Source: Actinomycetota bacterium (lineage in GTDB: Bacteria; Actinomycetota; UBA4738; HRBIN12). From it: a stretch of DNA of 64,000 nt. Each line of letters opens with the position of its first letter. Position 1 is the first letter of the stretch. The notes beneath the pieces were generated by a model. That model made no database searches. It was given only the letters and a program-made list of their open reading frames with translations, and was not told where the DNA came from. Location of the stretch: positions 7,494 to 71,493 of the forward strand of contig JBBDHX010000030.1 of assembly GCA_040880745.1 (NCBI GenBank). Direction: 5' to 3'. This document shows positions 17,887 through 32,542 of this stretch, one piece after another. The translations under genes were made by a program, and so were the position numbers.

Positions 17887-17906
17887 CTGGCTCCTCCTTC
17901 CTCGCG

Positions 17907-18190: not shown

Positions 18191-18211
18191 TGGCTCAGCT
18201 GGGGCGCTGGA

Positions 18212-18310: not shown

Positions 18311-18328
18311 CTCTCCTTCCCGTTCCGA

Positions 18329-18454: not shown

Positions 18455-18609
18455 CCCATCACCTCCTTCTTCCATTCCCCCGAGTCATCGGCCGGCCTGC
18501 CCTGTGGGCTCATCGGGCGACGGTCGATGATCCCGACCCCCCGGTACCCGGAGGCGAGTAGGACCGACGGATAGGTCCGAAGGCGGTGGCCGTCAGGGGG
18601 ACAGGGCGC

Positions 18610-19191: not shown

Positions 19192-19206
19192 GGTGGGGAC
19201 GGCGCG

Positions 19207-19887
19207 CTAGCCCTCGGCGGGGGCTTCGTCGGCGGCGGGCGCTTCCTCCACGGCGGGAGCGGCCTCCGCGGGCGCCTCCTCGGCCTCGGGTGCGGGCGCC
19301 TCGCCGGGGACCGAGAGATCCGCTTCGGTCCGCATCGCGGCCGGCGTGATCACCGAGACGATGGGAGTGTCGAGATCCGTGAGGATCGTGACGCCCGCGG
19401 GAGGCACGATGTCACCAACCCGGAGCATGTCGCCGATATCCAACGGGGTCACGTCGGCCTCGAGGGCCTCGGGCACGTCGCCCGGGAGGCATTCGATCTC
19501 GACTTCTCGCAGGTGACGCTCCAAGACGCCACCCTCCTTGACGCCGGCGGCCTCGCCCACGTCGCGTACCTCGACGGTCATCTTGACCTTCTCATCACGA
19601 CGGACCGCCAGGAAGTCGACGTGCACGTAGACGCTATGGATGAGGTCGCGCTGGACCTCGCGCGGGATGGCCAGGTGCGTCGCCCCGTCGACCTGAAGGT
19701 CGATCAGCATCGAGGCCCCGTGCGAGGCGTGGAACAGGTGCACCAGATCCTTGGCCGACACGCTGAGGGGCGTCGGGTCCATACCGTGGCCGTAGAGAAC
19801 GCCGGGGACGCGCCCGCCGGCCCGCAGACGGCGTCCGGCGCCCTTGCCGGTCTCGGTGCGGTGCTCAGCTTCGAGGATGGTTTCCAT
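19207..19887 (-). CDS. rplY: 50S ribosomal protein L25 / general stress protein Ctc
   Basis: Begins METILEAEHRTETGKGAGRRLRAGGRVPGVLYG. Ctc-form C-terminal extension with an acidic Ala/Glu/Pro tail. Confidence 0.85.
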   Translation of the reverse strand: METILEAEHRTETGKGAGRRLRAGGRVPGVLYGHGMDPTPLSVSAKDLVHLFHASHGASMLIDLQVDGATHLAIPREVQRDLIHSVYVHVDFLAVRRDEKVKMTVEVRDVGEAAGVKEGGVLERHLREVEIECLPGDVPEALEADVTPLDIGDMLRVGDIVPPAGVTILTDLDTPIVSVITPAAMRTEADLSVPGEAPAPEAEEAPAEAAPAVEEAPAADEAPAEG

Positions 19888-20040
19888 GGTCGCGAGGAGT
19901 CCTTCGAGGGGTCGTGGGAACCCGGGCATCCTAGCAACACGCTGGGAGGACCGACCGGCTGCGAGATCGTGGCGGCCCGAGCGCTACCTTCGGGGCACCT
20001 CGTGCGTCTTGGAGACACGATGCACGGAAGGACAGCCATC

Positions 20041-20559
20041 ATGACGGAGGCGACCTTGGTGGAGCCGGGCACGGATGCGATGGCGGATCTCTATGCCCGC
20101 CACGTTCCCTCGGCGATCCGCCTCGCCTACCTGCTCACGGGCGACCCCCATCAGGCTGAGGACCTCGCGCACGATGCGTTCGTGCGCTGCGTGGGCCGGT
20201 TCGGCCATCTCCGGGCGAAGGAGGCATTCGATGCCTACCTGCGGCGAGCGGTCGTGAACCTGCACACGTCCGGGCTCCGCCGCACCCGTACGGAGCGTTC
20301 GTGGCTCGCACGCGAGGGTGCCGCCGAGGTCCGCCGGACCACGGCGATGCCCGACGTAAGCGCGAAGGAAGATCTCTGGCGGGCGCTCGCGACCTTGCCG
20401 CAGCGGCAACGCGCCGCGCTCGTGCTCCGCCACTACGAAGACCTGTCCGAGCACGACACGGCCGACGTCATGCGATGCAGCGTCGCGGCCGTGAAGTCGC
20501 TCGTCGCGCGAGGGTCAGAGACCCTGCGCACCGCTCTTCACGAGGGAGGCATCCGATGA
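20041..20559 (+). CDS. ECF (sigma-70 family) RNA polymerase sigma factor
   Basis: Region 2 (AEDLAHDAFVRCV) and region 4 HTH (LSEHDTADVMRCSVAAVKSLVARG). Its stop overlaps the next gene in an ATGA arrangement. Confidence 0.85.
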   Translation: MTEATLVEPGTDAMADLYARHVPSAIRLAYLLTGDPHQAEDLAHDAFVRCVGRFGHLRAKEAFDAYLRRAVVNLHTSGLRRTRTERSWLAREGAAEVRRTTAMPDVSAKEDLWRALATLPQRQRAALVLRHYEDLSEHDTADVMRCSVAAVKSLVARGSETLRTALHEGGIR

Positions 20560-21776
20560 ACGACCTCGATCGCGAACTCAAGGATCTGTTCGAAACCAAG
20601 GCACGGAGCGTCGATGCGGGCTTGGTGGCCCCGGGAGCCGTGTTGCGCCGTGGGCGTCGCCGCCAGATCGGCATCGTTGCCGGCGGAGCGCTCGGTGGCG
20701 TCGCAGCGCTCATCGTCGCCGGCTCCCTCGCGCTCGCGCTGCTCGGCGACGGCAACGATGAGGTGCCCTCGAACCAGACGCCGAACGGTCCCTACGGCGA
20801 CCGCACCGCCATCATCGGAGGCTTCGGGGTGCAGGCCCCCGAAGGTTGGACCTTGATCGACCAGTGGCCGCTGGCCTCCATCATCTCGGTGGGGTCGACG
20901 TCGTGCACGGGATCGTTCAGCGCGGTCGGCGACCCGGTGGATGGAGCCAGCGAGCCCACGGTCGCGCGGTCCACGGCGCTCGGCGAGGAGGAGTGCACGA
21001 CCGAGCCCGCGTCGTTGCCGGCGGGCATCCCCGTCCTGCAGCTCTCGACGTATGACCCAGGACTCATGACGCCGGTGTGTGACGTCTTCGACCAGGGCAC
21101 CGGTGGGACGCTCCCTGCGGACGGGGTCGCGGTGTTCGTGACGGCCTTCCCGGGGACGAAGACGCCCGAGCAGGTCCAGCAGGCGCTGGCGGAAGCCTGC
21201 CCTGTGGCACCCGACATCGATTCGATCGTGCAGGGACCGTCGGTGACGTACGTGACCGCGACGTTCGCGGGATCGGACTCGGACCCGGCGCTGCTCGGGG
21301 CTGCCGCGAACGTCACCGACCTGGGCGGGCACGACACGCGCGAGTTGGCGCCGAGTCCACTGTCAGGGCCCGCCTACGTGATCGGCTCGGGCGTCACGGG
21401 CGGCGAGCGGTGGCAGGTCTCCGCCGGGGTCGACTTCAGCGAGGGCTATCTCTCCACCGTGTGGATGACGAGCTTCCGAGCGGATGGCTCCGTCACCGGG
21501 ACCCTTGCCCAGCCGTGGAGCGGCGGGAACGCCCCGGTCGCGTCGGCGCTCGACGTGGGCGACGCCGCCGTTGCGATCGCACTCATCCCCACGGGAAGCG
21601 GCGAGCCCCATTGGAAGACCGACACGGGGGTGGATGTGCCGCTCGATGAAGCCCCGTTCCCGAGCTCGCTCGCGGCGCTGACGTTGAAGCCTGTTCTCGA
21701 TGGCACGGCCGCGTGGGCTGAGGTGCCGGACGTGTCGGGAGCCGTCGTGACGGAGCTGGCATCGCCGACGGGCTAG
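20556..21776 (+). CDS. putative anti-sigma factor / single-pass membrane protein with large extracytoplasmic domain
   Basis: Translationally coupled to the ECF sigma gene. Cytoplasmic N-terminus of about 45 aa, one TM (IGIVAGGALGGVAALIVAGSLALALL), then an extracytoplasmic domain. Confidence 0.5.
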   Translation: MNDLDRELKDLFETKARSVDAGLVAPGAVLRRGRRRQIGIVAGGALGGVAALIVAGSLALALLGDGNDEVPSNQTPNGPYGDRTAIIGGFGVQAPEGWTLIDQWPLASIISVGSTSCTGSFSAVGDPVDGASEPTVARSTALGEEECTTEPASLPAGIPVLQLSTYDPGLMTPVCDVFDQGTGGTLPADGVAVFVTAFPGTKTPEQVQQALAEACPVAPDIDSIVQGPSVTYVTATFAGSDSDPALLGAAANVTDLGGHDTRELAPSPLSGPAYVIGSGVTGGERWQVSAGVDFSEGYLSTVWMTSFRADGSVTGTLAQPWSGGNAPVASALDVGDAAVAIALIPTGSGEPHWKTDTGVDVPLDEAPFPSSLAALTLKPVLDGTAAWAEVPDVSGAVVTELASPTG

Positions 21777-22753
21777 ACCTGGTTCGCGCCGCCGAAGATC
21801 TCCGAAACGCTCGAGTCCTCGAAGACCGCGCGGAGGGCAGACGCGATCAGCGGGGCGATCGAGAGCACCCGGAGCTTCGAGAACTGCTTCTCCTCCGGGA
21901 TCGGGACGGTGTTGGTCACGATCACCTGCTCGATGGGTGCATCTTCGAGGTTCTGGCGTGCCTTGCCGCTGAAGATCGCGTGGGTCGCGCCGGCGTAGAT
22001 CGGACCGGCCCCCATCGCCGCCAGCGCGCGGGCTCCCATCGTGAGCGTCCCCGCGGTATCGATCATGTCGTCGACCACCACGCAGGGGCGCCCGTCCACC
22101 TCGCCGACCACCGCGCTCTCTTCGATCTTGTGCGCCTCCTTGCGGGAGCGGCGCTTGTAGAGGAACGCCAGGTCCGCGTGCAGGTACTCGCGGAGTTTCT
22201 CGGCGGTCTTGATGCGACCGGCATCCGGAGCGACCACCACCAGGTCCTCCCCCTGCAGCCCGAGCTGGTCCTTCAGGTAGTTCGCGAGCAGCGGCAGCGC
22301 CGTCAGGTGGTCGAAAGGCGCGTCGAAGTACCCCTGGATCTGTCCCGAGTGCAGGTCGACCGACACGACGCGGTCGGCGCCGGCGGTGGAGAGCAGGTCC
22401 GCCACGAGCTTCGCGCTGATCGGCTCGCGTGAGACCGCCTTCTTGTCCTGCCGCGAGTAGCCGTAGTACGGGACGACCGCGCTGATCCGTTTGGCGCTCG
22501 CACGCTTCATCGCGTCGATCATGATGAGTTGCTCCATGATCGCCTCGTTGACCGGCTCGTAGTGCGTCTGGACGACGAAGACATCCGCGCCGCGGACGGA
22601 CTCGTCGGCGCGGAAGTAGATCTCGCCGCTCGCGAAACGGCGGAGCTCACCTTGGCTCACGGGGATGCCGAGGTTGTCGGCGATCTCGTGCGCGAGCGTC
22701 GGGTGGATGGTGCCGGAGTAGAGCATCATCCGCTTCTTGGTGATGATCTCCAT
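21773..22753 (-). CDS. prs: ribose-phosphate pyrophosphokinase
   Basis: Begins MEIITKKRMMLYSGTIHPTLAHEIADNLGIP. PRPP-binding motif VVVDDMIDTAGT. Confidence 0.95.
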   Translation of the reverse strand: MEIITKKRMMLYSGTIHPTLAHEIADNLGIPVSQGELRRFASGEIYFRADESVRGADVFVVQTHYEPVNEAIMEQLIMIDAMKRASAKRISAVVPYYGYSRQDKKAVSREPISAKLVADLLSTAGADRVVSVDLHSGQIQGYFDAPFDHLTALPLLANYLKDQLGLQGEDLVVVAPDAGRIKTAEKLREYLHADLAFLYKRRSRKEAHKIEESAVVGEVDGRPCVVVDDMIDTAGTLTMGARALAAMGAGPIYAGATHAIFSGKARQNLEDAPIEQVIVTNTVPIPEEKQFSKLRVLSIAPLIASALRAVFEDSSVSEIFGGANQV

Positions 22754-22756
22754 CGC

Positions 22757-24184
22757 CTAAGCCCCCTTCGGCTTCCGCGTGCTCTTGGCGTCCTTGCGCG
22801 TGCGGTACCCCGGCACGGTTCGCTGATCCGATCGCTCGACGGCGAGCGCGCCGTCGGGAACGTCGCTCGTGATCACGGACCCCGCTCCCGTCACGGCTCC
22901 CTTCCCGATCCGCACCGGCGCCACCAGCATCGTATCCGACCCGATCCGGGCTCCGTCTCCGATCGAGGTCTCGTGTTTGGCGTACCCGTCGTAGTTCACG
23001 GTGATCGAACCCGCGCCGATGTTCACGTTCTCGCCGATGGAAGCGTCACCGACGTAGGACAGGTGCGGGATCTTCGACCCGCGGCCGATCGTGGCCTCCT
23101 TCATATCCACGAACGCCCCGGCGCGTGAGCGGTCGGCCATGTCCACACCGGGACGGAGCCGCACGAACGGCCCGACCTGGACGTCGCGCCCGATCCTGGA
23201 GCCGAGCACCACGGAGAACCAGACCTCGGAGCGGTCGCCCACGGTGGAGTCCTGTACCACGGTCGACGGTCCGATCGTGCAGCCGCGACCGATGACGCTC
23301 GCGCCTTGGATGAAGGAGTTCGGGTAGATGACCGAGTCCGGCCCGATCCGGACCCCGACATCGATATAGGTCGCTGAGGGATCGACCAGGGTGACCCCGC
23401 TGGCCATGTGCCCGGCGTTGATGCGGCCCCTGTACAGCCGTTCGACGGCAGCGAGGCCCTCGCGGGAGTTGAGCCCCATCACCCCAGCGGTGTCGCACAC
23501 GACGGCTTCGATGCGCTCCCCGGAGGCCAGCAACATCGGGACGACACGGTTCAGGTAGTACTCCCGCTGACGGTTGCTCCTGTCCAGCTTCGGCAGCGCG
23601 CGGAACAGGTCGGCTCGGCGGAAGACCATCCAATTGGTGGCGACCTCCGTGATAGCGCGGATCTCGGGTGTGGCGTCGACGCCCTCCACGACGTCGACCA
23701 CCCGGCCACGAGGGTCACGGACCACCCGGCCGTACCCGCCCGGTTGATGCAGGTCCGCCGACGCGATCGTGACAACGGCGGCGGTCCGACGGTGGCGGCG
23801 GAGCAGAGCGCGGATGTCCTCGGGCCGCACCGGATCGAGGTCGCCGTTGGCCACCAGGACCTCGTCCACCGTTCCCACCGCCCGCTTCGCCGCGAGCACC
23901 GCGTGGCCCGTCCCCAACTGCTCCGCCTGCGTCACGAACACGGGAGCCGGCGTGAGCCCCCACGAGCGAACGGCATCTCGGACGTCATCGCCGCCGTGCC
24001 CGATGACCACCACGATCTTCGCCGGCTTGGCCGCGAGGACGAGCTGCAGGACGTGCCAGAGGGCCGGTTCGCCGGCAACGGGATGCAGAACCTTCGGGGT
24101 CCGGGAACGGAGACGCTTGCCCTTGCCTGCGGCCAGGACGACCGCGGCGAGCGTGCGTGGAAGTCGCGCTGCCATGAGGGATCC
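22757..24184 (-). CDS. glmU: bifunctional UDP-N-acetylglucosamine pyrophosphorylase / glucosamine-1-phosphate N-acetyltransferase
   Basis: Begins MAARLPRTLAAVVLAAGKGKRLRS, a nucleotidyltransferase GxGTRx motif. C-terminal left-handed beta-helix hexapeptide repeats. Start at the internal ATG of ORF 22757..24448. Confidence 0.9.
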   Translation of the reverse strand, partial: GSLMAARLPRTLAAVVLAAGKGKRLRSRTPKVLHPVAGEPALWHVLQLVLAAKPAKIVVVIGHGGDDVRDAVRSWGLTPAPVFVTQAEQLGTGHAVLAAKRAVGTVDEVLVANGDLDPVRPEDIRALLRRHRRTAAVVTIASADLHQPGGYGRVVRDPRGRVVDVVEGVDATPEIRAITEVATNWMVFRRADLFRALPKLDRSNRQREYYLNRVVPMLLASGERIEAVVCDTAGVMGLNSREGLAAVERLYRGRINAGHMASGVTLVDPSATYIDVGVRIGPDSVIYPNSFIQGASVIGRGCTIGPSTVVQDSTVGDRSEVWFSVVLGSRIGRDVQVGPFVRLRPGVDMADRSRAGAFVDMKEATIGRGSKIPHLSYVGDASIGENVNIGAGSITVNYDGYAKHETSIGDGARIGSDTMLVAPVRIGKGAVTGAGSVITSDVPDGALAVERSDQRTVPGYRTRKDAKSTRKPKGA

Positions 24185-24223
24185 GTATCGTCCCACACGA
24201 GACTCGCCTCGAGAGGTTCCGGG

Positions 24224-24300
24224 GGGAGGGATCCCGAAGAGCCCGACTGCGATGGAAACCTTGACAAGTCCGAGGGCGTGTGTTGATCGGTGCACTCCGG
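24224..24300. repeat. R0: direct repeat of the tRNA-Gln 3-prime end (putative distal att site of the island)
   Basis: ggttccggggggagggatc is identical over 19 nt to the tRNA 3-prime end at 32470-32488. It is followed by the family motifs ccgaag, cttgacaag and cgtgtgt. Confidence 0.6.
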
Positions 24301-24302
24301 GC

Positions 24303-25568
24303 CTAGGCATCGGTGAGGGCTCGTGCCGCCACCGTTTCGGCGTGCTCGAAAGCTGGGGCCATCTGCTCGATCTCCACCTTGGGGATGTTGCGTTCGGCGG
24401 CCAACTCACTCCAGCGGCTCGTCGCGACCAGAACCTCCCGGAGCACATCGACGCTGTCCTGTTCGTTCAACCGGAAGAGGGGCGCCACGGACATGAGCGT
24501 CTCGACGCTCGCCGTCGTGTCCGCCTCATCGATGGCGGTCGCCAGGTGCTTTCGGCCCGCGGACGGATCCGGGTTCAAGTCGAATGCGGGCGAGAGTCTC
24601 CATGCGCTACCGCCTGCGTGGAGGAAGGCGTGGTTCCGCAGGTGGTCGTCCGTGTTGGAGATCAGGATCGTGAACGCTATCCGTCTCCATAGTTCACGCA
24701 GGTCTTCGGTCGCCCGGGGGGAGACTTCCTCGATCGCAGAGGCTATCTCCAGATAGCTCCCTACGGCGCCGTGCTCGGCCTCCAGCATCGTCATCGCACT
24801 CACGTAACCGATCCGCCGGTGCCCTTCGCGGTCGAAGCGATGAACGATGAGGACGCTGCGGTCAGCCACCCGCAACAACTCCGACCTGGGAACGAGGATG
24901 CCTGCCAGGAGGGCAAGATCGAGCGCCACACTCTCCCAGGCCGTCACATCCCACGGATCGAACCTGGAACTGGGGAACTTCGCGATGGCGATGCGGCCTT
25001 CGTTGTCGATCACATGGGCCTTCGGGCGTGCCCCGCCAAGGGAGCTTCCTCCGCGAAGCAGGTCACGAAGCTCCTCTTCCGTCTCCGCTTCAGACTCGAG
25101 GTGTTCGGCTGCAAGGAGCAGGGTCCCGAGATCGGTTGCGTGTGGAACCCCCGAGTCCTCGTCGCCCAGGAAGACGCCGGTATCTGGATCGCGGAAGCGG
25201 AGTGCCCCCTGGCGGAGGTCATCTCTGACACCGAGTAGGAAGTCGATCTCGCCGAGCGAGCGAGCCGTTCCGCCTTCAGCGGTCGCCCGGCGCCGTTCTT
25301 CTCGCATGATCAGGTTGCGTCCCCAGCGGTCGGGAGCTGCGTCAGCGAATGCCCTGAACATGGAGAGACCTACTGGCGTCTGGAGTCCGCCCTGTACCAA
25401 CGGCAAGGACGGGTCGAGCGCGTAGGCGTCTGGGCGGGTCAGGTAAGCGGGGTCGTATGAGAACGAGGCGGACTCTCGACCTCCCCGCCGATGAGAGAAC
25501 AGGGATCCGGCGAGAACGTCCTCGCCGTCGATCGCGACGACGACCTGGGTCGGTCCCGCAGCCATCAC
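24303..25568 (-). CDS. hipA: type II toxin HipA-like serine/threonine kinase
   Basis: HipA N-terminal and C-terminal domains (VAIDGEDVLAGSL..., catalytic-loop region NTDDHLRNHAF). 4-nt overlap with the upstream HTH gene. Confidence 0.8.
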   Translation of the reverse strand: MMAAGPTQVVVAIDGEDVLAGSLFSHRRGGRESASFSYDPAYLTRPDAYALDPSLPLVQGGLQTPVGLSMFRAFADAAPDRWGRNLIMREERRRATAEGGTARSLGEIDFLLGVRDDLRQGALRFRDPDTGVFLGDEDSGVPHATDLGTLLLAAEHLESEAETEEELRDLLRGGSSLGGARPKAHVIDNEGRIAIAKFPSSRFDPWDVTAWESVALDLALLAGILVPRSELLRVADRSVLIVHRFDREGHRRIGYVSAMTMLEAEHGAVGSYLEIASAIEEVSPRATEDLRELWRRIAFTILISNTDDHLRNHAFLHAGGSAWRLSPAFDLNPDPSAGRKHLATAIDEADTTASVETLMSVAPLFRLNEQDSVDVLREVLVATSRWSELAAERNIPKVEIEQMAPAFEHAETVAARALTDA

Positions 25569-25888
25569 GAAGACCGGGGTTGCCGCACGCGGGTTGGGAG
25601 CCTCTCATCGGTTCTGAGGCGCCCAACGTCGGTGGCGTACGGGTCAAGGGCGGCGGCCAACTTGTCCAGCACGCCGAGAGCGCGGGCTACTCGCAGAGTG
25701 TTCTCGAGGCTGGTCGAGCCTTCTCCATGCTCCAGGCTGCGAAGGGTCTTCACGTCGACGCCCGCACGGTCCGCGACCTGTGCAGCGGTGAGCCGTTGCA
25801 GCTTGCGCCATGTGACGATGTCCTCCCCCAGCTGGCGGAGTGCGCGCTGCACCGGGATCGGTATAGGCCTAGTCGCATTCCTTACCAT
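25565..25888 (-). CDS. hipB: HipB-like XRE-family HTH antitoxin
   Basis: HTH segment LTAAQVADRAGVDVKTLRSLEHGE. Coupled to hipA by an ATGA-type overlap. Confidence 0.7.
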   Translation of the reverse strand: MVRNATRPIPIPVQRALRQLGEDIVTWRKLQRLTAAQVADRAGVDVKTLRSLEHGEGSTSLENTLRVARALGVLDKLAAALDPYATDVGRLRTDERLPTRVRQPRSS

Positions 25889-25906
25889 AACAGGGAGGAT
25901 ACTACC

Positions 25907-25923
25907 GCTTAGACGCTCTAAGC
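25907..25923. promoter_or_regulatory. perfect palindrome gcttagaCGCtctaagc about 19 nt upstream of the hipB start; candidate HipB operator
   Basis: 7-3-7 inverted repeat in the lower-GC divergent promoter region between hipB and the lipoprotein gene. Confidence 0.4.
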
Positions 25924-26091
25924 GCCGATCTATTCCCTCTTATTCACGTTCGGGCGTCGTAGGACGCGCGACGTTCAGAGCGCACGCGCCGCCCACTTTC
26001 GAGATACAAGGATCGCAGGAATTCGATCACGCCGAGAAGATCCCCGAGGAAGGGGAGTCACAGGCTAACTCGGCCACGGCATGATCTAGCG

Positions 26092-26907
26092 ATGGGAAGG
26101 CCGGGCCTCCTACTCATCGTCTCATCCGCCGTGAGGAGCCGGGCCTTCGTGCTCAGTCTCACGGTGCTAGCCGCAGCTTGTACGTCAGCGCGACCAGAGG
26201 GCTCGCAGCCTGCCTCCTCCGATCCTCTATCGGCGGGAACGACCGAGTCCCCCGCGCCATCGGGTCAGTATGGCTTCCTCGGAGTGAGCCTCCGCGTCCG
26301 GTACGAGGGCACGATCTTCACGGAAGGAGCTCTCGCCTTCGTCGAGGTGCGTGACCCCTCAGGAGGGGTCGTCGGCAGGGATCGCTCGAAACAAGCGCGA
26401 GTCGTCCTGCCCCTCCAACTCGCCTCTGGTGACTACGAGGTGAGGACGTATCTCCGACCCTGTGTGGGGTCATGTGCCGCCCTCGATCCGCCACGAGACC
26501 AGTGCCGCGTCCCTGTCGAGATACCCGACGACGACGCCCCGAGGTTCGTATCCATCGAAGTGGTGGCGGTGGTCGGAGACTGCCACGTGTCCGACGATGG
26601 CGCCGCGGTTTTCGAGGCGAGCCTTCCCGGTTCGCCCTCGGTCGAAGTCGGCCAGCCGAACCCGATCAAGCTCTTCACGCACTGCGGTATCGACCAAGCG
26701 GCCGTTGACTTCGATGGGAACTGGTGGGACCTCGTCCCCGCGTCGGTGAAGGGCGAGTTCAACGAACCGTTCACCGAGGGCACGCTGACCCTGCTGCCGG
26801 AGGGCACTGCCACCTTCGACGCGCCACCCCAAGGTCTGGCAACCAAGGGCGCCGAGGCTCGGTTCGTCAGACACGAAGGTCCCATCCAGCTGTCTGGCTG
26901 CTACTGA
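26092..26907 (+). CDS. hypothetical lipoprotein
   Basis: Signal peptide with lipobox LAAAC; no recognisable domain. Confidence 0.6.
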   Translation: MGRPGLLLIVSSAVRSRAFVLSLTVLAAACTSARPEGSQPASSDPLSAGTTESPAPSGQYGFLGVSLRVRYEGTIFTEGALAFVEVRDPSGGVVGRDRSKQARVVLPLQLASGDYEVRTYLRPCVGSCAALDPPRDQCRVPVEIPDDDAPRFVSIEVVAVVGDCHVSDDGAAVFEASLPGSPSVEVGQPNPIKLFTHCGIDQAAVDFDGNWWDLVPASVKGEFNEPFTEGTLTLLPEGTATFDAPPQGLATKGAEARFVRHEGPIQLSGCY

Positions 26908-26949
26908 GTGACGGCCGCCGGGACGGGTCCTCAGACGGTCGAGCACTCG

Positions 26950-27120
26950 TTCCGGGGGGAGGAGGAACGGATCGACCGACACACGCTCACCTGCATGTCA
27001 AGTTTCGATCCCACCGTGCGCACGCCTTGACAAGCCCTAGAACCGTGTGTCGCTCCGATCCAGGGGTCAGGAATGCTTACCGGCGCCTACCGCTCACACC
27101 GCCACCCTTTCCGTCCGGAC
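26950..27120. repeat. R1: member of the roughly 160-nt structured repeat family that starts with the tRNA 3-prime core gttccggggggagg
   Basis: Shares gacacacgctcacctgcatgtcaagtt...cttgacaag...ccgtgtgtcg...gcttacc with R2, R3 and R4. Confidence 0.6.
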
Positions 27121-27441
27121 CACCATCGAGTCGGGTAGCGTTCCGGACGTGAGCCAGACTTCTCCGAACGCACAACTTTGCGGATCGTTGACCACCATCT
27201 TGTGCGAATGTGAGCGGGAGCGTCTTGAGGGTGCCGTTGGTAGCGCGCCGCTGGGAAGGTTGACGCGCCAGTGAATGTCCCGAGTCTCCAACCGAAGGCG
27301 TCCGTGCGGGAAGGGAACTCGACTTGCGGACACGGCGACGGGCGAAGCGTCGGTTCGCCGTGAAAGGAAGGCGCGGTCTGTGAGCCTCGTGCAGTGCGCG
27401 AGGTCGGCACCAAGGCGAGTGCTGACGTGTAAGAGAACCCC

Positions 27442-27954
27442 GTGATGGACGAAACCGGCCGGCCTCTCGCATCCAGCGGCTCCGTCGAAGTCCGCGTGCT
27501 GACCGCGCCGACCCGTGCCGAGATCGACCAGCTCGCGGAGATCTTCGACCGGTATCGCCTCCACTATGGCGAAGCTGCTGACGCGTTACGGACGGCGAGT
27601 TGGCTGGAAGAGAACATCAGCAGCGGCCGCCTCGAAGCCTTCGTAGCGGAAGACAAAGGTGCGTTCGTCGGCTTTGCCATCACGATGACCGTTCCCGCAT
27701 CGCTGCGGCTCGGCCACTTCTGGCAGATCAGAGATATCTTCGTCTTGCCGAGCCATCGTCGCCTTCGCGTCGGTCGCACGCTGCTCGACTTCATTCGCGC
27801 CGCCGCAGTCAGAGCGGGTGCCTTACGCTTGGTCTTGCAGACGGAGGCCGACAACACCCCCGCCCTTCGTCTCTATGCCGAGAGCGGCTACACGGCGGTC
27901 GAGGGCTATCGCTCACTGACGCTGCCACTGACGCCTGATTCCCGGGGGAGCTAA
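27442..27954 (+). CDS. GNAT family N-acetyltransferase
   Basis: Acetyl-CoA binding motif RRLRVGRTLLDFIRAAAVRAGALRLVL...LYAESGY. Confidence 0.75.
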   Translation: MMDETGRPLASSGSVEVRVLTAPTRAEIDQLAEIFDRYRLHYGEAADALRTASWLEENISSGRLEAFVAEDKGAFVGFAITMTVPASLRLGHFWQIRDIFVLPSHRRLRVGRTLLDFIRAAAVRAGALRLVLQTEADNTPALRLYAESGYTAVEGYRSLTLPLTPDSRGS

Positions 27955-28136
27955 CCGGATTTCGTGTTTCTACGATGGCCGGCGGATCTACGACTCCTAC
28001 TCGCGACCACCGATCTTCGACTCGTCGATCCAACCGTACGAAGATCAGACGCACAAGGATCGGGTGCCTTGGTCGACGCGATGTTGTACCTCGCGAAACT
28101 CGAACTCCGATGAGCCCCTAGGGCCGTGATGCATCG

Positions 28137-28330
28137 TTCGGGGGGGAGGATAGGGCAAGCACGCCACACACGCTGACCTGCATGTCAAGCTGCACGTTCA
28201 GGATCCGATTTGAACTTGACAGGGTTCCGACCGTGTGTCGGGCGCTCAGGGCTTTCTGGACGCTTACTCCCGTTTACCAGCCAACGCGGCCACACGGATG
28301 GCCTCCGCCGTGTCAAGTCGGCCCCAGGAG
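28137..28330. repeat. R2: structured repeat family member (gttcgggggggagga...)
   Basis: ccacacacgctgacctgcatgtcaagct...cttgacagg...ccgtgtgtcgggcgctcagg...gcttactcccgtttacc. Lies between the convergent GNAT and VOC genes. Confidence 0.6.
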
Positions 28331-28460
28331 CCAGGTTCCTCGCGGTCACCTGGGCAGTCGCTCAAGCGGTGCTGGTCGCGACGGTTCCTCCGTCCGGCGA
28401 GCGGGCTGTTGGCCCGGCCCTGCACCGTGAGGTTGAGCCGCGGTCGGGGTGTCGGCGGGA

Positions 28461-28880
28461 TCAAGGGACGCCGGGACGGTGAGGCGCGTCGATCACCGGA
28501 TCGGGCGCATGCCATACGGCCTCGACGTTGTTCTGATGCAAGTCGTTCACGAATGCGGCGTAGTACCGCTCGGAGTACTGCGTCCACACGCCGGGCTCGC
28601 CCCGGATCGTGGCACCGTTCGCGACCGCGGCCTCGAAGAACGCGTCTACCTCCTCCCGACCCTCGGCGGAGAATGCAACATGAGCCGCCGTGGTCGCGGG
28701 CTCCCCCTGGCAGATCGTGAAGTCGTCCAGGTCCTCGGCCCCGTAGCTGACACAGTCGTCCTGAGCGTGAAGTTCTTCGTAGCCGAGTGGGGCGAGGGCT
28801 GCCGTATAGAACCGTCGGCTCGCGTCCAGGTCAGCCACGACGAAGAGCACGTGATCGACGATCACGCGCCGAACGCTCAT
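28461..28880 (-). CDS. VOC (glyoxalase/bleomycin resistance/dioxygenase) family protein
   Basis: Begins VDHVLFVVADLDASRRFYTAALAPLGY; paired beta-alpha-beta-beta-beta modules. Confidence 0.75.
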   Translation of the reverse strand: MSVRRVIVDHVLFVVADLDASRRFYTAALAPLGYEELHAQDDCVSYGAEDLDDFTICQGEPATTAAHVAFSAEGREEVDAFFEAAVANGATIRGEPGVWTQYSERYYAAFVNDLHQNNVEAVWHAPDPVIDAPHRPGVP

Positions 28881-28948
28881 CAGTCAACGCTATCAACACC
28901 GCGCATCCGACTCCAGCAACTTGACGTGCCAGAATGCCCTCTCAGAGT

Positions 28949-29110
28949 TGTTCCGGGGGGGAGGAAGTCCGAAGCAAGCGACACACGACCTCCTCGGTGT
29001 GAAGTTGGCAGTGGGACGCTAGCCACGACCCACGCCCGTGTGTCGAACGTTCAGCTGGTCTCGAACCGCTTACTGCCGCTTACCGGCAGCAACCTCCCCA
29101 CGTAAGAACC
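28949..29110. repeat. R3: structured repeat family member
   Basis: gttccgggggggaggaagtccgaagcaagcgacacacg...ccgtgtgtcgaacg...gcttactgccgcttacc, about 80 percent identical to R4. Lies upstream of the ECF sigma gene at 29210. Confidence 0.6.
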
Positions 29111-29209
29111 ATGCCGTGTCAAGGAGGATCGGTCCAGCGCCCTCGCTCGTGCGGAGGCTCCTGAGCCTGCCTCGTTAACCTTTCGAGGGCCTTCGGGCTC
29201 GTATGAGGC

Positions 29210-29701
29210 GTGAAGATGAGCGACCGCAGTGTGGTGAAGAACGAACGCAACTATGTGGCCCTGTACCGGACCACCGGCGTTGCGCTGTGGCGTGCCATCT
29301 ACGTGTACAGCGGGGGCTCGCGGGACATCGCCGACGATGCCGTCGCCGAGGCGTTCGCAAGAGCGATCCAACACGACGACGCTATTCGACGGCCTGAATC
29401 CTGGCTCTATCGCACGGCCTTTCACGTCGCGGCTGCTGAGCTTCGACAGAAGCGGTTTCTCGTTGACGCCCCCGAGCGTGCTGGGGACGAGGCGGTGGAC
29501 TTGACCGACCTCACGAAGGCTCTGCGCAGGCTGTCGCCGAATCAGCGTGCAGCCGTCTACCTCTTCTACCAAGCGGACCTCCCCATTCGAGAAGTGGCGG
29601 CTCTGATGGGGACATCGGTCACGGCCGTCAAAGTCCATCTACATCGGGGGAGACACCGGTTGCGTGACCTGCTGGGAAGTGAGGAGGCGGGAGATGACTG
29701 A
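29210..29701 (+). CDS. ECF sigma factor
   Basis: Region 2 (DDAVAEAFARAIQH) and region 4 (LPIREVAALMGTSVTAVKVHLHRGRHRLR). Stop overlaps the next gene. Confidence 0.85.
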   Translation: MKMSDRSVVKNERNYVALYRTTGVALWRAIYVYSGGSRDIADDAVAEAFARAIQHDDAIRRPESWLYRTAFHVAAAELRQKRFLVDAPERAGDEAVDLTDLTKALRRLSPNQRAAVYLFYQADLPIREVAALMGTSVTAVKVHLHRGRHRLRDLLGSEEAGDD

Positions 29702-30290
29702 GCGTTGGCTAGTGGAGATGCAGAAGGTCGACCGTTTGGAGCCGATCCCCGACCTATTGGCGAGGGCAGAAGTTGGTCCCTCGCTCGCCGAACCCAGCCT
29801 TCGTCCGGGGCGACGGGTAGCGGCGGGGCTCGTCGCGCTGGTGATCGCCATCGCGGGAGGGTGGCTGGCATTCAGCACTCTCAACGACTCGGGCGGGCGA
29901 CAGGCGACGGACGACGGCTCCTCCAGCGTCGTCGGATGGCCAGATGCCTCCGTCGCGGAGGCTCAGAAGGTTCAAGACAAAGTGGACAGCGGTGCGCCCG
30001 AGGTGCAGTGGCGTACAGACGCTGCTGCGGCTGCTCTACGCTATGGGCAGACGGTACTCGGATGGCCTTCCCCGTTGGCCGGGGTGAACGCAACGGACGA
30101 TCCCGATGTCGTTGTCGTTTCCCTGCACGGGCCGGACGCCTCGTGCGCGGCTCCCTGTTCTGGCTCCGTGTCACCAAAGTCCATCGCGATACTGACCTTG
30201 CAGCGACTCGTGCGCGAAGGTGACGGCGGAATCTGGAGCGTTACCTCGGTGGCGGACCAAGATGCCTTTCCGACCCAGCCTGCAGGCTGA
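29695..30290 (+). CDS. putative anti-sigma factor (single-pass membrane protein)
   Basis: ATGA overlap with the sigma gene; cytoplasmic N-terminus, a TM (AAGLVALVIAIAGGWLAF), and an extracytoplasmic domain with Cys pairs. Confidence 0.5.
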
Positions 30291-30348
30291 GCGTCCTCGG
30301 AGCCGACCGTCGTTCGGAGCCGTCTGCAGGGAGAACAGGCGGTTCGTT

Positions 30349-30555
30349 CGGTTCCGGGGGGAGGAAGGCCGAAGCAGGCGACACACGATCTCTTCGGTGT
30401 CAAGTTGGCGTTGGGAACTTGACACGCTTCGACCCGTGTGTAGAGCGCTCAGAGGGTTACGAGTCGCTTACTCCTGCTTACCGACGAAACACGACCCCAC
30501 CCCGGTCGTGAGCTGACACGTCAAGTGGCACACACACCCGCGCTCACGAGGATCA
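30349..30555. repeat. R4: structured repeat family member, with the clearest nested inverted repeats
   Basis: ggttccggggggaggaaggCCGAAGcaggcGACACACGatctCTTCGGTGTCAAGTTggcgttgggAACTTGACACgcttcgaccCGTGTGTag...gcttactcctgcttacc. Lies between two convergent anti-sigma genes. Confidence 0.6.
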
Positions 30556-31875
30556 TTCGATCGTGTTTGGTACCACCACTCGCGCCCAGGTCGCCCCATC
30601 CCAGTGCTCGACTAGAGGCATCGAGTGCCGCCCCCATTCCACTCCCACGATCCAAGCATCGTCCGCCGCAGCGACGAAGATCGACGACGCCGTTACATCG
30701 AAGTCGGTCGGGGGCACGATCAGGTCGCAGGTCGCCTCGGTGCAGCTTGCGACTGCCAGCGACGAGGTAGCCGGACTGCCAACCACCCATGCGGGGCCAG
30801 AAGCCGTGCCTCCGACTGCTTGGGCCGACCAAAGCGAGAGCCCGTTCACCTCGACCATCTCCCAAGTCCTACCGCTCCACCTGCGCATGAGCGCGTGCAG
30901 GTGGTGGTCCGACGCCCTGTAGTCCCCCAATGCCCAGACCGCGCCCGTGCCGTCAGCACCCATCCCCCAGATGATGTTGAGAGATCGGCTGGGGTCGGGT
31001 GCGGCCACGACGTCCCACGCTCGGCCATCCCAATGCATCGTCAACGTCGATCCTTCTCCGCTGCCCTGAGCGAGATCGACGGAATACCCACCGACCCATA
31101 CGTCGGTCGAGGACAGCGCGACGATCCCGGTGAGGTAGTTGTCTCTTGTCCCAGGATTCGGCGGCTGCATCACGGTCCAAGTGCTTCCGTCGAAATGCGC
31201 GACGGCGGACGAGAGACCTCGGGAGTTAGCTCCGATCAAGGGACCTGTCCGAGTGCCTGCCAGCCACACATCGCTTGGTCCGAGCGCCGAGAGCGCACCG
31301 TAGTTACCACGAGGCAGCGGCTCCGTCGTCCACTCCGCTCCGTTCCAGTGGAGGAGACCCCCGTAGCCAAGTGCCCAGGCGTCATCTGGCGAGGTGGCGT
31401 CCACGGCGATCAAGCGGCCGACATCGGGGACAGTCGTCGTCGTCCAGGAAGCGCCATCCCAATGAACGACCAGCGAGTGATCGTTCCCACCGTCGCCATG
31501 CGTCTCACCGACCGCCCATATGTCGGTCCCCCCCGCTCCGTCGATGGCTGCAAGCGATGAGCCTGGATGAGCGGCGACCTGGCCGTCACCCGGCCCGAAT
31601 CCAGGTCCAGGCTGCACGCCGTTCGCCTGGGAGGCTCGTGGACCCGTTTCCTGAGGAACCGTTCGATTGCTTAGGACCGCAGCGATCCCAAGAGAGACTA
31701 AGACGACGCCCGCGAGCGCGATCCATGCGCGATACCAACGAGCCGGAATGCGTTCTTGCCCGCGCACCAACTCGGAGGAGGCATGGAAGCGACGCAGTTC
31801 GGCGTCGGCGTCGATAGCCCAACCGCTATCAACCTCACGAAGCCATGATGCGACCAGTCGATTGGGCTCGTTCAT
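30553..31875 (-). CDS. anti-sigma factor with six-bladed beta-propeller-like HWDGxxW repeat ectodomain
   Basis: The N-terminus has an anti-sigma-like cytoplasmic segment plus a TM (WIALAGVVLVSLGIAAVL). Six repeats of about 45 aa are each centred on (H/R)W(D/N/S)G..W. 4-nt overlap with the upstream sigma gene. Confidence 0.55.
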   Translation of the reverse strand: MNEPNRLVASWLREVDSGWAIDADAELRRFHASSELVRGQERIPARWYRAWIALAGVVLVSLGIAAVLSNRTVPQETGPRASQANGVQPGPGFGPGDGQVAAHPGSSLAAIDGAGGTDIWAVGETHGDGGNDHSLVVHWDGASWTTTTVPDVGRLIAVDATSPDDAWALGYGGLLHWNGAEWTTEPLPRGNYGALSALGPSDVWLAGTRTGPLIGANSRGLSSAVAHFDGSTWTVMQPPNPGTRDNYLTGIVALSSTDVWVGGYSVDLAQGSGEGSTLTMHWDGRAWDVVAAPDPSRSLNIIWGMGADGTGAVWALGDYRASDHHLHALMRRWSGRTWEMVEVNGLSLWSAQAVGGTASGPAWVVGSPATSSLAVASCTEATCDLIVPPTDFDVTASSIFVAAADDAWIVGVEWGRHSMPLVEHWDGATWARVVVPNTIE

Positions 31876-32390
31876 AAGTGCGCCTCCTCGATCCCCTCAT
31901 CGAGAAGCAGCCGTAGTCGCCGCCGAGCCCGGGCTGTATGAGTCCTGACGCTCCCAGAGGGGATGTGCAGAATCCTGGCCACTTCTCGCGAGTCCATACC
32001 CGCGTAGTCGGTCAGAACGATGCAGGTGCGTTGGCGATCCGTAAGCGCTTTGAGCGCATCGACGATCACCAACCGGGTGGTCATCTCCTCACCCTCGAAG
32101 GGATGCCCCGCGTCGCGGAGGGATTCACTTGGATCGTTCGAAACCTTCTTACGCCGTCGAGATTCGGATCGAGCGAGATTCAGGCCGATGCGCATGACGG
32201 AGTTCCTGACGTGCTCTGGGGATTGGTAGCGGTCCCATCGAGCCCATGCGCGGGCGAACGCTTCTTGTGCCAACTCGATGCCATCCTCTCGGTTACCAAC
32301 CACCAACCCGAGGGACCTTGCAACAGTCGAGAACTGGGCTCGGAAGAGCTCGTCGAAGTCCTCCGTGCGGTTCCCTCCTCTACCGATCTG
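31872..32390 (-). CDS. ECF sigma factor; annotated ORF start at 32306 is a TTG and region 2.1 lies upstream of it with no canonical start
   Basis: Region 2.2-2.4 (GNREDGIELAQEAFARAWARW) and region 4 (LTDRQRTCIVLTDYAGMDSREVARILHIPSGSVRTHTARARRRL). The in-frame upstream segment TEDFDELFRAQFSTVARSLG looks like region 2.1, but it runs into a TGA at 32391-32393 with no ATG or GTG. Confidence 0.7.
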   Translation of the reverse strand, partial: QIGRGGNRTEDFDELFRAQFSTVARSLGLVVGNREDGIELAQEAFARAWARWDRYQSPEHVRNSVMRIGLNLARSESRRRKKVSNDPSESLRDAGHPFEGEEMTTRLVIVDALKALTDRQRTCIVLTDYAGMDSREVARILHIPSGSVRTHTARARRRLRLLLDEGIEEAHL

Positions 32391-32471
32391 TCATGTATAC
32401 GCATGGAGCGGCAACAGTGCACACAACACCGGGTCAATCCGTTCGACCCGGACGTCAGCCTCCGAGTGGGT

Positions 32472-32542
32472 TCCGGGGGGAGGGATCGAACCTCCATCTC
32501 AGGCTCCAAAGGCCCGCGTCTTGCCGTTAGACGACCCCGGAG
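32472..32542 (-). tRNA. tRNA-Gln(UUG)
   Basis: Manual fold: acceptor TCCGGGG/CCCCGGA; D arm GTCT-AACGGCA-AGAC; anticodon stem CGGGC/GCCTG with loop CTTTGGA (anticodon TTG); variable loop AGATG; T arm GGAGG-TTCGATC-CCTCC; discriminator A. Total length is 72 nt; CC is encoded after the discriminator. Confidence 0.7.

What the first reader, a model, noticed from the sequence alone, without database searches (positions are those of the whole stretch)
24224..32488. Integrase-less 8.2-kb island inserted at the 3-prime end of tRNA-Gln, delimited by a 19-nt perfect direct repeat of the tRNA 3-prime terminus
The sequence ggttccggggggagggatc at 24224 reproduces exactly the acceptor-stem and T-arm end of the minus-strand tRNA-Gln at 32470-32488. 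The two copies bracket all the non-housekeeping genes lying between glmU and ispE: hipBA, lipoprotein, GNAT, VOC and two ECF sigma/anti-sigma pairs. This is the classic attL/attR signature of site-specific integration into a tRNA gene. No integrase, excisionase or transposase ORF is present anywhere in the interval. So the element is either a decayed or trans-mobilised island, or something more unusual such as a cassette array (see next finding). Intergenic tracts inside the island appear lower in GC than the flanking core genes.
Basis: seen in the sequence. Interest (0 to 1): 0.75.

Follow-up and report, generated by a model that had tools for sequence, protein, structure and literature searches.

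The report
Integrase-less cassette array at tRNA-Gln
The "island" is a row of five small gene cassettes stacked behind a glutamine tRNA gene, each ending in a conserved ~145-base element plus a copy of the tRNA's last 15-19 bases; the same design recurs in many uncultured soil actinobacteria, never with a recombinase gene nearby, so it looks like an undescribed integron-like gene-capture site.

Summary
It is the 3' end of an intact minus-strand tRNA-Gln(UUG). A relative (L009) has the empty site: tRNA, a 39-nt spacer, then the glmU start. No recombinase was found in the interval or among the 30 larger ORFs scanned in the rest of the window, and GC is lower inside.

The interval is not one 8.2-kb island. 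It holds five tandem units of 2119, 1400, 815, 1187 and 2733 bp. Each unit is cargo, then a conserved ~145-nt element, then a 14-19-nt tRNA-end core. Conservation stops right after GGAAC.

The same element turns up, whenever flanks are visible, only in the ispE-tRNA-Gln...glmU-prs locus of other uncultured actinomycetes: 3 genome contigs and 23 metagenome contigs. Units move as discrete pieces. The GNAT unit is 92% identical to one lying directly after the tRNA in a genome whose glmU is only 72% identical, with the same first bases at the junction.

About 120 ORFs from the window and some 40 related loci gave no integrase. The only mobility gene is one IS256-type transposase.

Best reading: trans-mobilised cassettes inserted by site-specific recombination at the tRNA end. 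This resembles an integron or a CIME array but meets neither definition. The recombinase is unknown.

The parts
32469..32541 (-). tRNA-Gln(UUG), intact. Its last 19 nt (32469-32487) are the proximal repeat copy, and its 3' end is the acceptor site of the array. The ispE stop codon (32527-32529) lies inside the tRNA 5' part.
   Evidence: ARAGORN; Rfam RF00005, 61.4 bits; translation
30350..32468 (-). Unit 5, next to the tRNA, 2119 bp. It carries an ECF sigma (31872-32306, minus strand), a 440-aa membrane protein that is probably the anti-sigma (30553-31875, minus strand), and element E (30350-30492, core 30350-30364). A terminator-like hairpin at 32429-32451 follows the tRNA directly.
   Evidence: Pfam; nhmmer E=1e-36; terminator scan. 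The anti-sigma role is inferred from position and one transmembrane segment.
28950..30349 (-). Unit 4, 1400 bp. It carries an ECF sigma (29216-29701, plus strand), an overlapping 198-aa membrane protein (29694-30290, plus strand), and element D (28950-29092). The core of D has one extra C.
   Evidence: Pfam; nhmmer E=8e-36; gene calls of the Logan contig
28135..28949 (-). Unit 3, 815 bp. It carries a VOC/glyoxalase-family gene (28461-28880, minus strand) and element C (28135-28282). The core reads CCTCCCCCCCGAAC.
   Evidence: Pfam; nhmmer E=3e-35
26948..28134 (-). Unit 2, 1187 bp. It carries a GNAT acetyltransferase (27445-27954, plus strand) and element B (26948-27092). The stretch 27408-27960 is 91.7% identical to L001 7803-8355, which lies directly after the tRNA-Gln of that genome.
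   Evidence: Pfam; blastn; junction comparison
24215..26947 (-). Unit 1, next to glmU, 2733 bp. It carries a lipoprotein-like 252-aa gene (26149-26907, plus strand), hipB (25565-25888, minus strand), hipA (24303-25568, minus strand), and degenerate element A (24215-~24311). Element A lacks the second palindrome half and ends in the distal 19-nt repeat (24215-24233).
   Evidence: Pfam; nhmmer E=6e-9 after iteration; alignment
24176..24214 (-). Native 39-nt spacer between the tRNA-Gln 3' end and the glmU start codon. It was displaced 8.25 kb from the tRNA by the array.
   Evidence: Homologous 39-nt spacer directly after the tRNA in L009
22757..24175 (-). glmU, a core gene flanking the array. prs follows at 21773-22753.
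   Evidence: Pfam; the search for related loci

Best explanation
The interval 24215-32468 is a tandem array of five small gene cassettes without an integrase, inserted one after another at the 3' end of tRNA-Gln(UUG).

Read in the tRNA's direction, each unit is cargo (1-3 genes, either orientation), then a conserved ~145-nt element, then a core:
- The element has two GTAAGC direct repeats about 11 bp apart.
- It then has an imperfect palindrome: CGACACACGG-N10-TTGTCAAG, a loop, then CTTGACA-N10/11-CGTGTGTCG.
- About 17 nt further on lies the 14-19-nt core, CCTCCCCCCGGAAC. This core is identical to the T-stem 3' strand plus the acceptor 3' strand of the tRNA.

Proposed mechanism: a cassette, presumably circular, recombines through its element and core with the identical core at the end of the tRNA, or at the end of a resident cassette. 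This inserts the cassette, regenerates the tRNA, and leaves element plus core at the distal junction. Repeating the event stacks the units. The enzyme is supplied in trans from elsewhere in the genome or from a helper element. It is most likely a tyrosine recombinase that binds the element as a one-sided arm.

Shown:
- the unit architecture;
- the sharp junction after GGAAC;
- the empty site in a relative;
- confinement of the element to this locus wherever flanks are visible;
- movement of individual units between genomes and between positions in the array;
- absence of linked recombinases.

Inferred:
- a circular intermediate;
- the recombinase class;
- supply of the enzyme in trans;
- whether the system is still active.
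For: - Five in-register copies of the element and core lie in the window, and none lies elsewhere in its 64 kb. The core occurs 5 times within 2 mismatches, against 0.56 expected; the fifth copy, D, has an extra C in its core and was found by repeat search and nhmmer.
- Information content is about 1.95 bits/nt in the core and 0.15 immediately after GGAAC. The 5' edge of the element is at CCGGTAAGC.
- L009 has the empty site with the same 39-nt spacer. L005, L033 and L021 have the tRNA 77-159 nt from the start of the glmU match.
- The element is present in L013, L019 and L024, with a remnant in L012, and in 23 of the 32 metagenome contigs recovered with a pattern search. It is always on the tRNA strand. 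Wherever flanks are visible it lies between ispE/tRNA-Gln and glmU/prs.
- The GNAT unit is 91.7% identical to its counterpart in L001, while glmU is 71.9% and ksgA 69.7% identical. In L001 the unit follows the tRNA directly (..GGAACC|ATGCATCATGG). In the window it follows core C (..CGAACG|ATGCATCACGG). In L001 it keeps the start of the same B-type element on its far side.
- An SDR unit follows the tRNA in L102 and follows an element core in L084.
- A 2.3-kb OpuAC+cyclase module is 90-94% identical in six genomes, at different offsets.
- About 120 ORFs gave no integrase or recombinase.
- GC and GC3 are lower inside the array.
Against: - No recombinase was identified anywhere, so the central step is untested.
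- No conserved sequence lies on the other side of the crossover: no shared motif was found in the 250 nt after 51 cores. This is unusual for a double-strand tyrosine-recombinase site.
- No circular or excised form, and no array variant from the same population, was seen. Exact-protein look-ups returned only one Logan contig, which is identical to the window.
- Many related genomes have variable DNA in the same interval with no element at all. Part of the variability therefore has other causes, or the sites decay quickly.
- Copy A shares 19 nt with the tRNA, including GATC, while the internal copies share 14-15 nt. This difference is unexplained.
- Several pieces of evidence rest on short metagenome contigs.
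Confidence: 0.6

Rival explanations
1. The array is made of ordinary decayed integrative elements (CIMEs). Conventional elements carrying an integrase, such as AICEs, IMEs or prophages, integrated repeatedly at tRNA-Gln. Each then lost its integrase and backbone by deletion, leaving cargo plus attR. The units never functioned as cassettes.
For: - Tandem accretion at tRNA 3' ends with decayed members is well documented (PMC5704250; the tycheposon preprint 10.1101/2020.12.28.424599).
- Copy A is visibly decayed.
- L001 and L012 keep only remnants of the element.
- An IS256-type transposase interrupts one array.
Against: - No integrase, relaxase or replication gene, or recognisable fragment of one, was found in about 120 ORFs from some 40 loci.
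- Units are only 0.6-4.2 kb.
- The GNAT unit has the same first bases right after the core in two genomes and in two array positions. Independent deletions would not produce that.
- No P'-arm remnant follows any core.
Confidence: 0.2
2. It is a true integron relic (CALIN). The ~145-nt elements are attC sites that fold as single-stranded hairpins and are recombined by an IntI-type integrase encoded elsewhere.
For: - The palindrome has an attC-like layout: two box pairs, unpaired spacers and a loop of variable length. It folds that way as ssDNA, and 93.6% of box positions are complementary.
- The cargo types are typical of chromosomal integron cassettes: toxin-antitoxin, GNAT, VOC, lipoprotein.
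- CALINs without a nearby intI are common (PMC4889954).
Against: - The crossover lies about 32 nt beyond the hairpin base, at CCGGAAC. On the other strand this reads GTTCCGG, which does not fit GTTRRRY/RYYYAAC.
- There are no compensatory changes in 27 copies, and RNAalifold finds no consensus hairpin.
- ORFs show no common orientation.
- The sites imitate a tRNA end, which attC sites do not.
- In the 2016 survey no Actinobacteria genome carried a complete integron (PMC4889954).
Confidence: 0.07
3. The repeats are not recombination sites. The element is a locus-specific regulatory or structural repeat, for example a protein operator or a terminator-promoter module. It spread by duplication, and homologous recombination between conserved flanks (tRNA, glmU, the repeats) shuffled the genes.
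For: - The boxes are conserved as sequence rather than as structure.
- TTGACA-like hexamers are present, and some copies carry a third CTTGACAC box upstream.
- The flanking housekeeping genes could serve as anchors for homologous exchange.
Against: - No -10 partner was found for the TTGACA boxes, and the promoter scan found nothing.
- The exact tRNA-end core at every copy, and the single-base-sharp junction shared between the tRNA and the elements, are what site-specific exchange predicts, not duplication.
- A 92%-identical unit in a genome that is 72% identical elsewhere needs horizontal transfer.
Confidence: 0.08
4. It is a single 8.2-kb island, integrated once and bounded by the 19-nt repeat.
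For: - The outer repeat is perfect and the longest (19 nt).
- The whole interval has a uniformly lower GC content.
Against: - Four internal element and core copies lie in register.
- Unit 2 occurs alone in L001.
- Related arrays carry different unit sets.
Confidence: 0.03

Closest known systems
Integrons, especially sedentary chromosomal integrons and CALINs (clusters of attC sites lacking an integron-integrase)
   Same: - Arrays of small units of 1-3 genes.
- Each unit ends in a one-sided, imperfectly palindromic repeat of about 60-150 nt that is fairly homogeneous within a lineage.
- One fixed primary insertion point.
- Similar cargo: toxin-antitoxin, GNAT, VOC/glyoxalase, small unknown proteins.
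- Arrays without a linked integrase exist (CALIN; PMC4889954).
   Different: - The insertion point is the 3' end of a tRNA gene, and every site ends in a 14-19-nt copy of that end.
- There is no intI and no attI/Pc module.
- The crossover motif does not fit GTTRRRY.
- The crossover lies about 32 nt beyond the palindrome.
- GTAAGC direct repeats are present.
- Genes lie in both orientations.
- The host phylum had no complete integrons in the 2016 survey.
Tandem accretion of integrative elements at tRNA genes, and CIMEs (cis-mobilisable elements; Pavlovic 2004, Bellanger 2011, reviewed in PMC5704250)
   Same: - Direct repeats of a tRNA 3' end separate successive insertions.
- Members lack integration genes but keep their att sites.
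- Mobilisation is presumed to depend on an integrase supplied by another element.
   Different: - CIMEs are decayed ICEs or IMEs, usually several kb to tens of kb. They are found beside functional relatives that carry the integrase.
- Here the units are 0.6-4 kb, and no integrase-bearing relative was seen in about 40 loci.
- Only one arm is conserved.
Tycheposons and the tRNA-anchored islands of Prochlorococcus (10.1101/2020.12.28.424599)
   Same: - Variable islands sit next to a tRNA gene.
- Partial tRNA copies lie scattered through the island.
- Newer arrivals push older ones away from the tRNA.
- The cargo is mostly niche-adaptive.
   Different: - By definition, tycheposons carry a tyrosine or large serine recombinase and often replication genes, and they are 10-20 kb long.
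- No conserved ~145-nt site element has been described for them.
IMEXs and pdif modules (elements that borrow the host XerC/D recombinases)
   Same: - Small modules without a recombinase, bounded by short recombination sites and moved by a host-encoded tyrosine recombinase.
   Different: - Those integrate at dif or pdif sites, which have XerC-spacer-XerD architecture.
- Here the target is a tRNA end.
- Only an 8-9-nt resemblance (ATGTCAAG) to the actinobacterial XerD arm was noticed. That arm was recalled from memory and the resemblance was not tested.

Membership tests
Classical tRNA-integrated genomic island or integrative element | Direct repeat of the tRNA 3' end at the distal border, with the intact tRNA at the proximal border | tested here: met
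   19/19-nt repeat at 24215 and 32469; the tRNA is intact
Classical tRNA-integrated genomic island or integrative element | An empty site exists in relatives | tested here: met
   L009 has tRNA, a 39-nt spacer, then glmU. L005, L033 and L021 have gaps of 77-159 nt to the start of the glmU match.
Classical tRNA-integrated genomic island or integrative element | It encodes its own site-specific integrase, usually next to one att site | tested here: not met
   No recombinase domain was found in any island ORF, in 30 further ORFs of the window, or in the related intervals
CIME (cis-mobilisable element) | [quoted passage not shown] | tested here: met
   Each unit is bounded by cores and has no mobility genes
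CIME (cis-mobilisable element) | It derives from an ICE or IME by decay, so that backbone remnants or intact relatives sharing the att site exist | tested here: not met
   No backbone remnants in some 40 loci. No match to the element in plasmids, phages or viral contigs. Whole genomes could not be searched.
Integron / CALIN | At least two attC sites recognised by the attC covariance model (R''-L''...L'-R' with GTTRRRY at the crossover) | tested here: not met
   The crossover-side motif is CCGGAAC, or GTTCCGG on the other strand. It lies about 32 nt outside the palindrome. The IntegronFinder model itself was not available, so only the consensus and geometry were tested.
Integron / CALIN | Hairpin structure maintained by selection (covariation) | tested here: inconclusive
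   93.6% complementary but 0 compensatory pairs. No RNAalifold consensus. ssDNA fold z-scores, same-sense strand, from -0.5 to -2.5. Weak signal for a stem extension, p about 0.05.
Integron / CALIN | An IntI integrase adjacent to attI (for a complete integron) | tested here: not met
   The neighbours of the insertion point are ispE, ksgA, tatD and metG on one side and glmU and prs on the other
Tycheposon | It carries a tyrosine or large serine recombinase, with or without a replication module | tested here: not met
   None found (calls as above)
MITE / REP-type dispersed repeat | Copies are dispersed at many unrelated loci | tested here: not met
   In the window the element occurs only in this interval. 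All 10 metagenome contigs with recognisable flanks are from the same locus.
IMEX / Xer-dependent module | A dif-like site of 28 nt (XerC arm, 6-nt spacer, XerD arm) at the junctions | not tested
   Only a partial 8-9-nt resemblance, judged against a consensus recalled from memory. No dif model was available.

The most novel reading that the evidence does not exclude
This is a gene-capture platform native to uncultured soil Actinomycetes that parallels integrons but evolved separately. The 3' end of tRNA-Gln serves as the fixed acceptor site, in the role of attI. Mobile cassettes of 0.6-4 kb carry a ~145-nt site that ends in a mimic of the tRNA 3' end, in the role of attC. A dedicated, unlinked and still unidentified recombinase moves them between genomes.
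Probability: 0.45. Interest if true: 0.85.

Novelty: new variant of a known kind. Interest (0 to 1): 0.74.

Why it matters
Integrons are the textbook cassette-capture system, and the 2016 survey found no complete integron in any Actinobacteria genome. A cassette system anchored on a tRNA gene in this phylum, with precise units that cross between genomes only about 70% identical in their housekeeping genes, would add a second, independently built solution to the same problem.

It would explain one conserved hotspot of accessory genes: toxin-antitoxin pairs, acetyltransferases, VOC enzymes, ECF sigma pairs, transporters and cyclases.

It also poses a clear, testable question: which recombinase recognises a one-sided site ending in a tRNA 3' end. 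Such an enzyme could serve as an integration tool aimed at a universally conserved target.

If instead the units prove to be ordinary decayed elements, the result is still a well-documented integration hotspot, but an unremarkable one.

Tried and rejected
- **Single-island model.** Rejected because of the internal element and core copies.
- **Recombinase search.** Pfam on every credible island ORF, on 30 further ORFs of the window, and on about 70 ORFs from related intervals found none. Short stretches where no ORF was called were not scanned: 4191-5425, 8388-9595, 17680-18562, 46204-47408 and 54339-55179.
- **Known RNA family.** Rfam at E<=1 returned only the tRNA.
- **Promoter reading of the TTGACA boxes.** No -10 partner was seen, and the scan found 0 sites.
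- **Conserved hairpin.** No compensatory changes and no RNAalifold consensus. A test for a stem extension was marginal.
- **P' arm.** No shared motif in the 250 nt after 51 cores.
- **Donor phage or plasmid.** The element gave no hit in viral contigs, PLSDB plasmids or GenBank phages.
- **Other strains of the same population.** Exact-protein look-ups for glmU and VOC found nothing. Those for GNAT, the 440-aa protein, the 252-aa protein and sigma returned one Logan contig identical to the window.
- **Primer-binding-site idea.** The core is complementary to the tRNA end on the other strand, as a retroelement primer-binding site would be. This was dropped because the CCA-complement position is not conserved.
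- **Target-site-duplication or transposon model.** Dropped because the left ends of the units are not conserved.
- **dif/Xer resemblance.** Limited to ATGTCAAG, compared with a consensus recalled from memory. The literature search did not supply the consensus.
- **Prior descriptions.** Literature searches for an earlier description found none.

Full report
**Observation.** The 19-mer GGTTCCGGGGGGAGGGATC occurs exactly twice, in direct orientation, at 24215-24233 and 32469-32487. A third copy with 3 mismatches lies at 30350. With up to 3 mismatches 0.08 matches are expected by chance, and no shuffle reached three.

The copy at 32469 is the 3' end of an intact minus-strand tRNA-Gln(UUG) at 32469-32541 (ARAGORN; Rfam, 61.4 bits). 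It covers the last four T-loop bases, the T-stem 3' strand, the acceptor 3' strand, the discriminator and CC. The DNA between the repeats lies downstream of the tRNA 3' end, which is the geometry expected for integration into a tRNA gene.

glmU runs from 24175 down to 22757, so the distal repeat sits 39 nt upstream of its ATG. ispE ends at 32527, with its stop codon inside the tRNA 5' part.

**Empty site.** A scan with GlmU returned 80 loci from uncultured Actinomycetes and Actinomycetota MAGs at 40-72% protein identity. One fragment was 96% identical but truncated.

In L009 the orthologous tRNA-Gln is followed by 39 nt and then the glmU ATG. That spacer is homologous to window 24176-24214 (..GTGTGGGACGATACG.GTCCCTC ATG). 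L005, L033 and L021 also have the tRNA 77-159 nt from the start of the glmU match. The ancestral arrangement is therefore tRNA-Gln next to glmU, and the window carries an 8.25-kb insertion exactly at the tRNA end.

**Content and composition.** Pfam identifies these genes:
- hipA (24303-25568) and hipB (25565-25888);
- a GNAT (27445-27954);
- a VOC/glyoxalase-family protein (28461-28880);
- two ECF sigma factors (29216-29701 and 31872-32306).

Each sigma gene is followed by a protein with one transmembrane segment, and these are probably anti-sigma factors by inference. A lipoprotein-like ORF lies at 26149-26907.

No integrase, excisionase or transposase domain was found in the interval or in 30 further ORFs across the rest of the window. 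GC is 0.61-0.67 inside against 0.68-0.73 outside. GC3 is 0.68-0.81 inside against 0.83-0.93 outside.

**The interval is an array, not one island.** Repeat finding and a search for the core show that CCTCCCCCCGGAAC(C), read in the tRNA's direction, recurs inside the island at 30350, 28950, 28135 and 26948. The search found 5 matches within 2 mismatches against 0.56 expected; the 28950 copy carries an extra C and was picked up by the repeat search and nhmmer instead. Each internal copy is the 3' end of a repeat of about 145 nt (nhmmer E from 1e-35 to 1e-36). The copy next to glmU is a degenerate member that lacks half of the palindrome (E=6e-9 after iteration).

In the tRNA's direction the array reads:

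tRNA | unit 5 | unit 4 | unit 3 | unit 2 | unit 1 | spacer-glmU

The units measure 2119, 1400, 815, 1187 and 2733 bp. Each is cargo followed by the element and then the core.

**Anatomy of the element.** An alignment of 27 copies gives this order:
- (C/G)CGGTAAGC-N4/5-GTAAGCG;
- about 20 nt;
- CGACACACGG-N10-TTGTCAAG(T/G);
- a loop of variable length;
- CTTGACA-N10/11-CGTGTGTCG;
- about 17 nt;
- TCCTCCCCCCGGAAC.

Information content is about 1.95 bits/nt in the core and falls to about 0.15 at the very next base. The 5' edge is equally well defined. Nothing is conserved in the 250 nt after 51 cores.

The two box pairs are 93.6% complementary, but there is not one compensatory change. RNAalifold finds no consensus hairpin. 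As single-stranded DNA in the tRNA's sense the elements fold into a two-helix hairpin with an internal loop, with modest z-scores of -0.5 to -2.5. The data do not decide between a folded single-strand site and a set of duplex protein-binding boxes.

Rfam has no family for the element. The TTGACA hexamers have no -10 partner.

**Distribution.** The profile finds the element in L013, L019 and L024, and a remnant in L012. A pattern scan of metagenome contigs returned 32 loci. By nhmmer, 22 of these carry strong copies of the element and one more (L090) a weak match, and three of them carry two copies 1.3-1.7 kb apart.

In every contig that also holds tRNA-Gln, the element is on the tRNA's strand and downstream of it. 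All ten contigs with recognisable flanks come from the same ispE-tRNA-Gln...glmU-prs locus.

Distances from boundary to boundary are 0.6-4.2 kb. No copy was found in viral contigs, plasmids or phages.

**Units move as units.**
- Window 27408-27960, the GNAT unit, is 91.7% identical to L001 7803-8355. Between the same two genomes glmU is 71.9% and ksgA 69.7% identical.
- In L001 the unit follows the tRNA directly (..CCGGAACC|ATGCATCATGG). In the window it follows the core of unit 3 (..CCCGAACG|ATGCATCACGG). In L001 it is still followed by the first ~45 nt of the same element subtype.
- This fixes the unit as cargo plus element plus core, and places the crossover within or at the edge of the 14-15-nt core.
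- An SDR unit follows the tRNA in L102 and follows an element core in L084.
- A 2.3-kb OpuAC+adenylate-cyclase module is 90-94% identical in six genomes, at different offsets within the interval.

Cargo elsewhere includes AbiEii, a chromate transporter, NmrA, SDR, MerR/DUF433, a low-molecular-weight phosphatase, SnoaL, hydrolases, APH, MFS and RTX proteins.

**No linked recombinase.** About 120 ORFs were scanned, from the window and from some 40 related intervals. The only mobility gene is an IS256-type transposase that interrupts the L013 array.

**Mechanism.** The best-supported reading has three parts:
- Small cassettes are inserted by site-specific recombination between their element and core and the identical core at the tRNA end, or at a resident cassette's end.
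- This regenerates the tRNA and stacks the units.
- The enzyme is supplied in trans.

A tyrosine recombinase with an arm-binding domain would fit the GTAAGC direct repeats and the boxed palindrome, but that is inference.

The lack of any conserved sequence on the far side of the crossover is atypical for duplex sites. It keeps a folded-strand mechanism of the integron type open. Confidence in the trans-mobilised cassette model is about 0.6.

The main rival is an array of decayed conventional elements (CIMEs). The absence of backbone remnants, the small unit size and the identical unit boundary in two contexts weigh against it, at about 0.2. A true CALIN, a non-recombinational repeat, and the single-island model are each less likely.

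**Comparison with known systems.** The array works like an integron or a CALIN: small cassettes, one-sided palindromic sites, a fixed acceptor and similar cargo. It fails the membership tests that could be applied:
- there is no IntI;
- the crossover motif is not GTTRRRY;
- the crossover lies outside the palindrome;
- there is no orientation bias;
- the 2016 survey found no complete integron in any Actinobacteria genome (PMC4889954).

It matches the descriptive definition of CIMEs, which keep their att sites and have lost their mobility genes. It does not match their origin from ICEs or IMEs (PMC5704250). Tycheposon islands share the tRNA anchoring and the pushed-along partial tRNAs, but tycheposons are defined by their own recombinases. 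The literature searches I ran found no description of this element.

**Verdict.** The single-island interpretation is replaced by a tandem cassette array of a kind I could not find described. I rate it a new variant of a known kind: site-specific cassette arrays or tRNA-anchored accretion. There is a substantial chance that it is a separate integron-like system. The missing recombinase and the lack of direct evidence for current mobility are the main gaps.

Noticed in passing
window 32527-32541: The ispE reading frame runs 13 nt into the 5' end of tRNA-Gln. Its TAA stop is the TAA of the tRNA D-arm region.
   Followed up: partly
window ~20000-21776 (+): A third ECF sigma factor (Sigma70_r2/r4 at the C-terminal end of ORF 18985-20559) and a following 491-aa ORF without Pfam hits lie just beyond prs, outside the array. 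Relatives of this sigma occur inside or beside arrays in L087, L092 and L098.
   Followed up: partly
window 24215-24233 compared with the internal cores: The distal copy shares 19 nt with the tRNA, including the T-loop bases GATC. The internal copies and the terminal copies in other genomes share only 14-15 nt and read CTT, CTA or CTG at that position. Whether this reflects a different crossover point, a variant site or gene conversion is unexplained.
   Followed up: no
window 27102-27407 compared with L001 8351-8355: The GNAT unit of the window has 306 nt between the GNAT start and element B that are absent from the 92%-identical unit in L001. The 156-aa ORF called there (27094-27564) has poor coding statistics and is probably not a gene.
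   Followed up: partly
L013 4832-4945 and 4998-6245; L087 649-1112: A remnant of the hipA C-terminus (60% identity over 38 aa) lies next to the element in L013, separated from it by an IS256-type transposase. L087 has a distant HipA-like gene in the same position. A hipBA unit with this element subtype therefore seems old and widespread.
   Followed up: partly
30-45 nt upstream of the element in several copies (e.g. window 28283-28330, 29093-29130, 30493-30530; L024, L087, L092, L107): An extra CTTGACAC box lies upstream of the GTAAGC repeats, sometimes with a GTGTG partner. Some elements may therefore have three half-sites rather than two.
   Followed up: no
L013, L015, L020, L030, L035, L071 (e.g. 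L013 2467-4833): A 2.3-kb module (OpuAC-type binding protein plus adenylate cyclase) is 90-94% identical across genomes whose glmU regions are 80-87% identical. It sits at different distances from the tRNA and mostly has no recognisable element beside it.
   Followed up: partly
L113/L114 (Logan contig SRR27977663_333774): A public short-read assembly contig is 100% identical to window 24384-32532. It breaks inside hipA and inside the tRNA. This names a sample in which reads could be mined for array variants.
   Followed up: yes
window 52948-54339 and 55179-55901 (-): Two neighbouring ORFs both hit the class I/II aminotransferase family. The second covers only the N-terminal ~100 profile positions and has lower GC3 (0.75), so it may be a gene fragment or pseudogene.
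   Followed up: no
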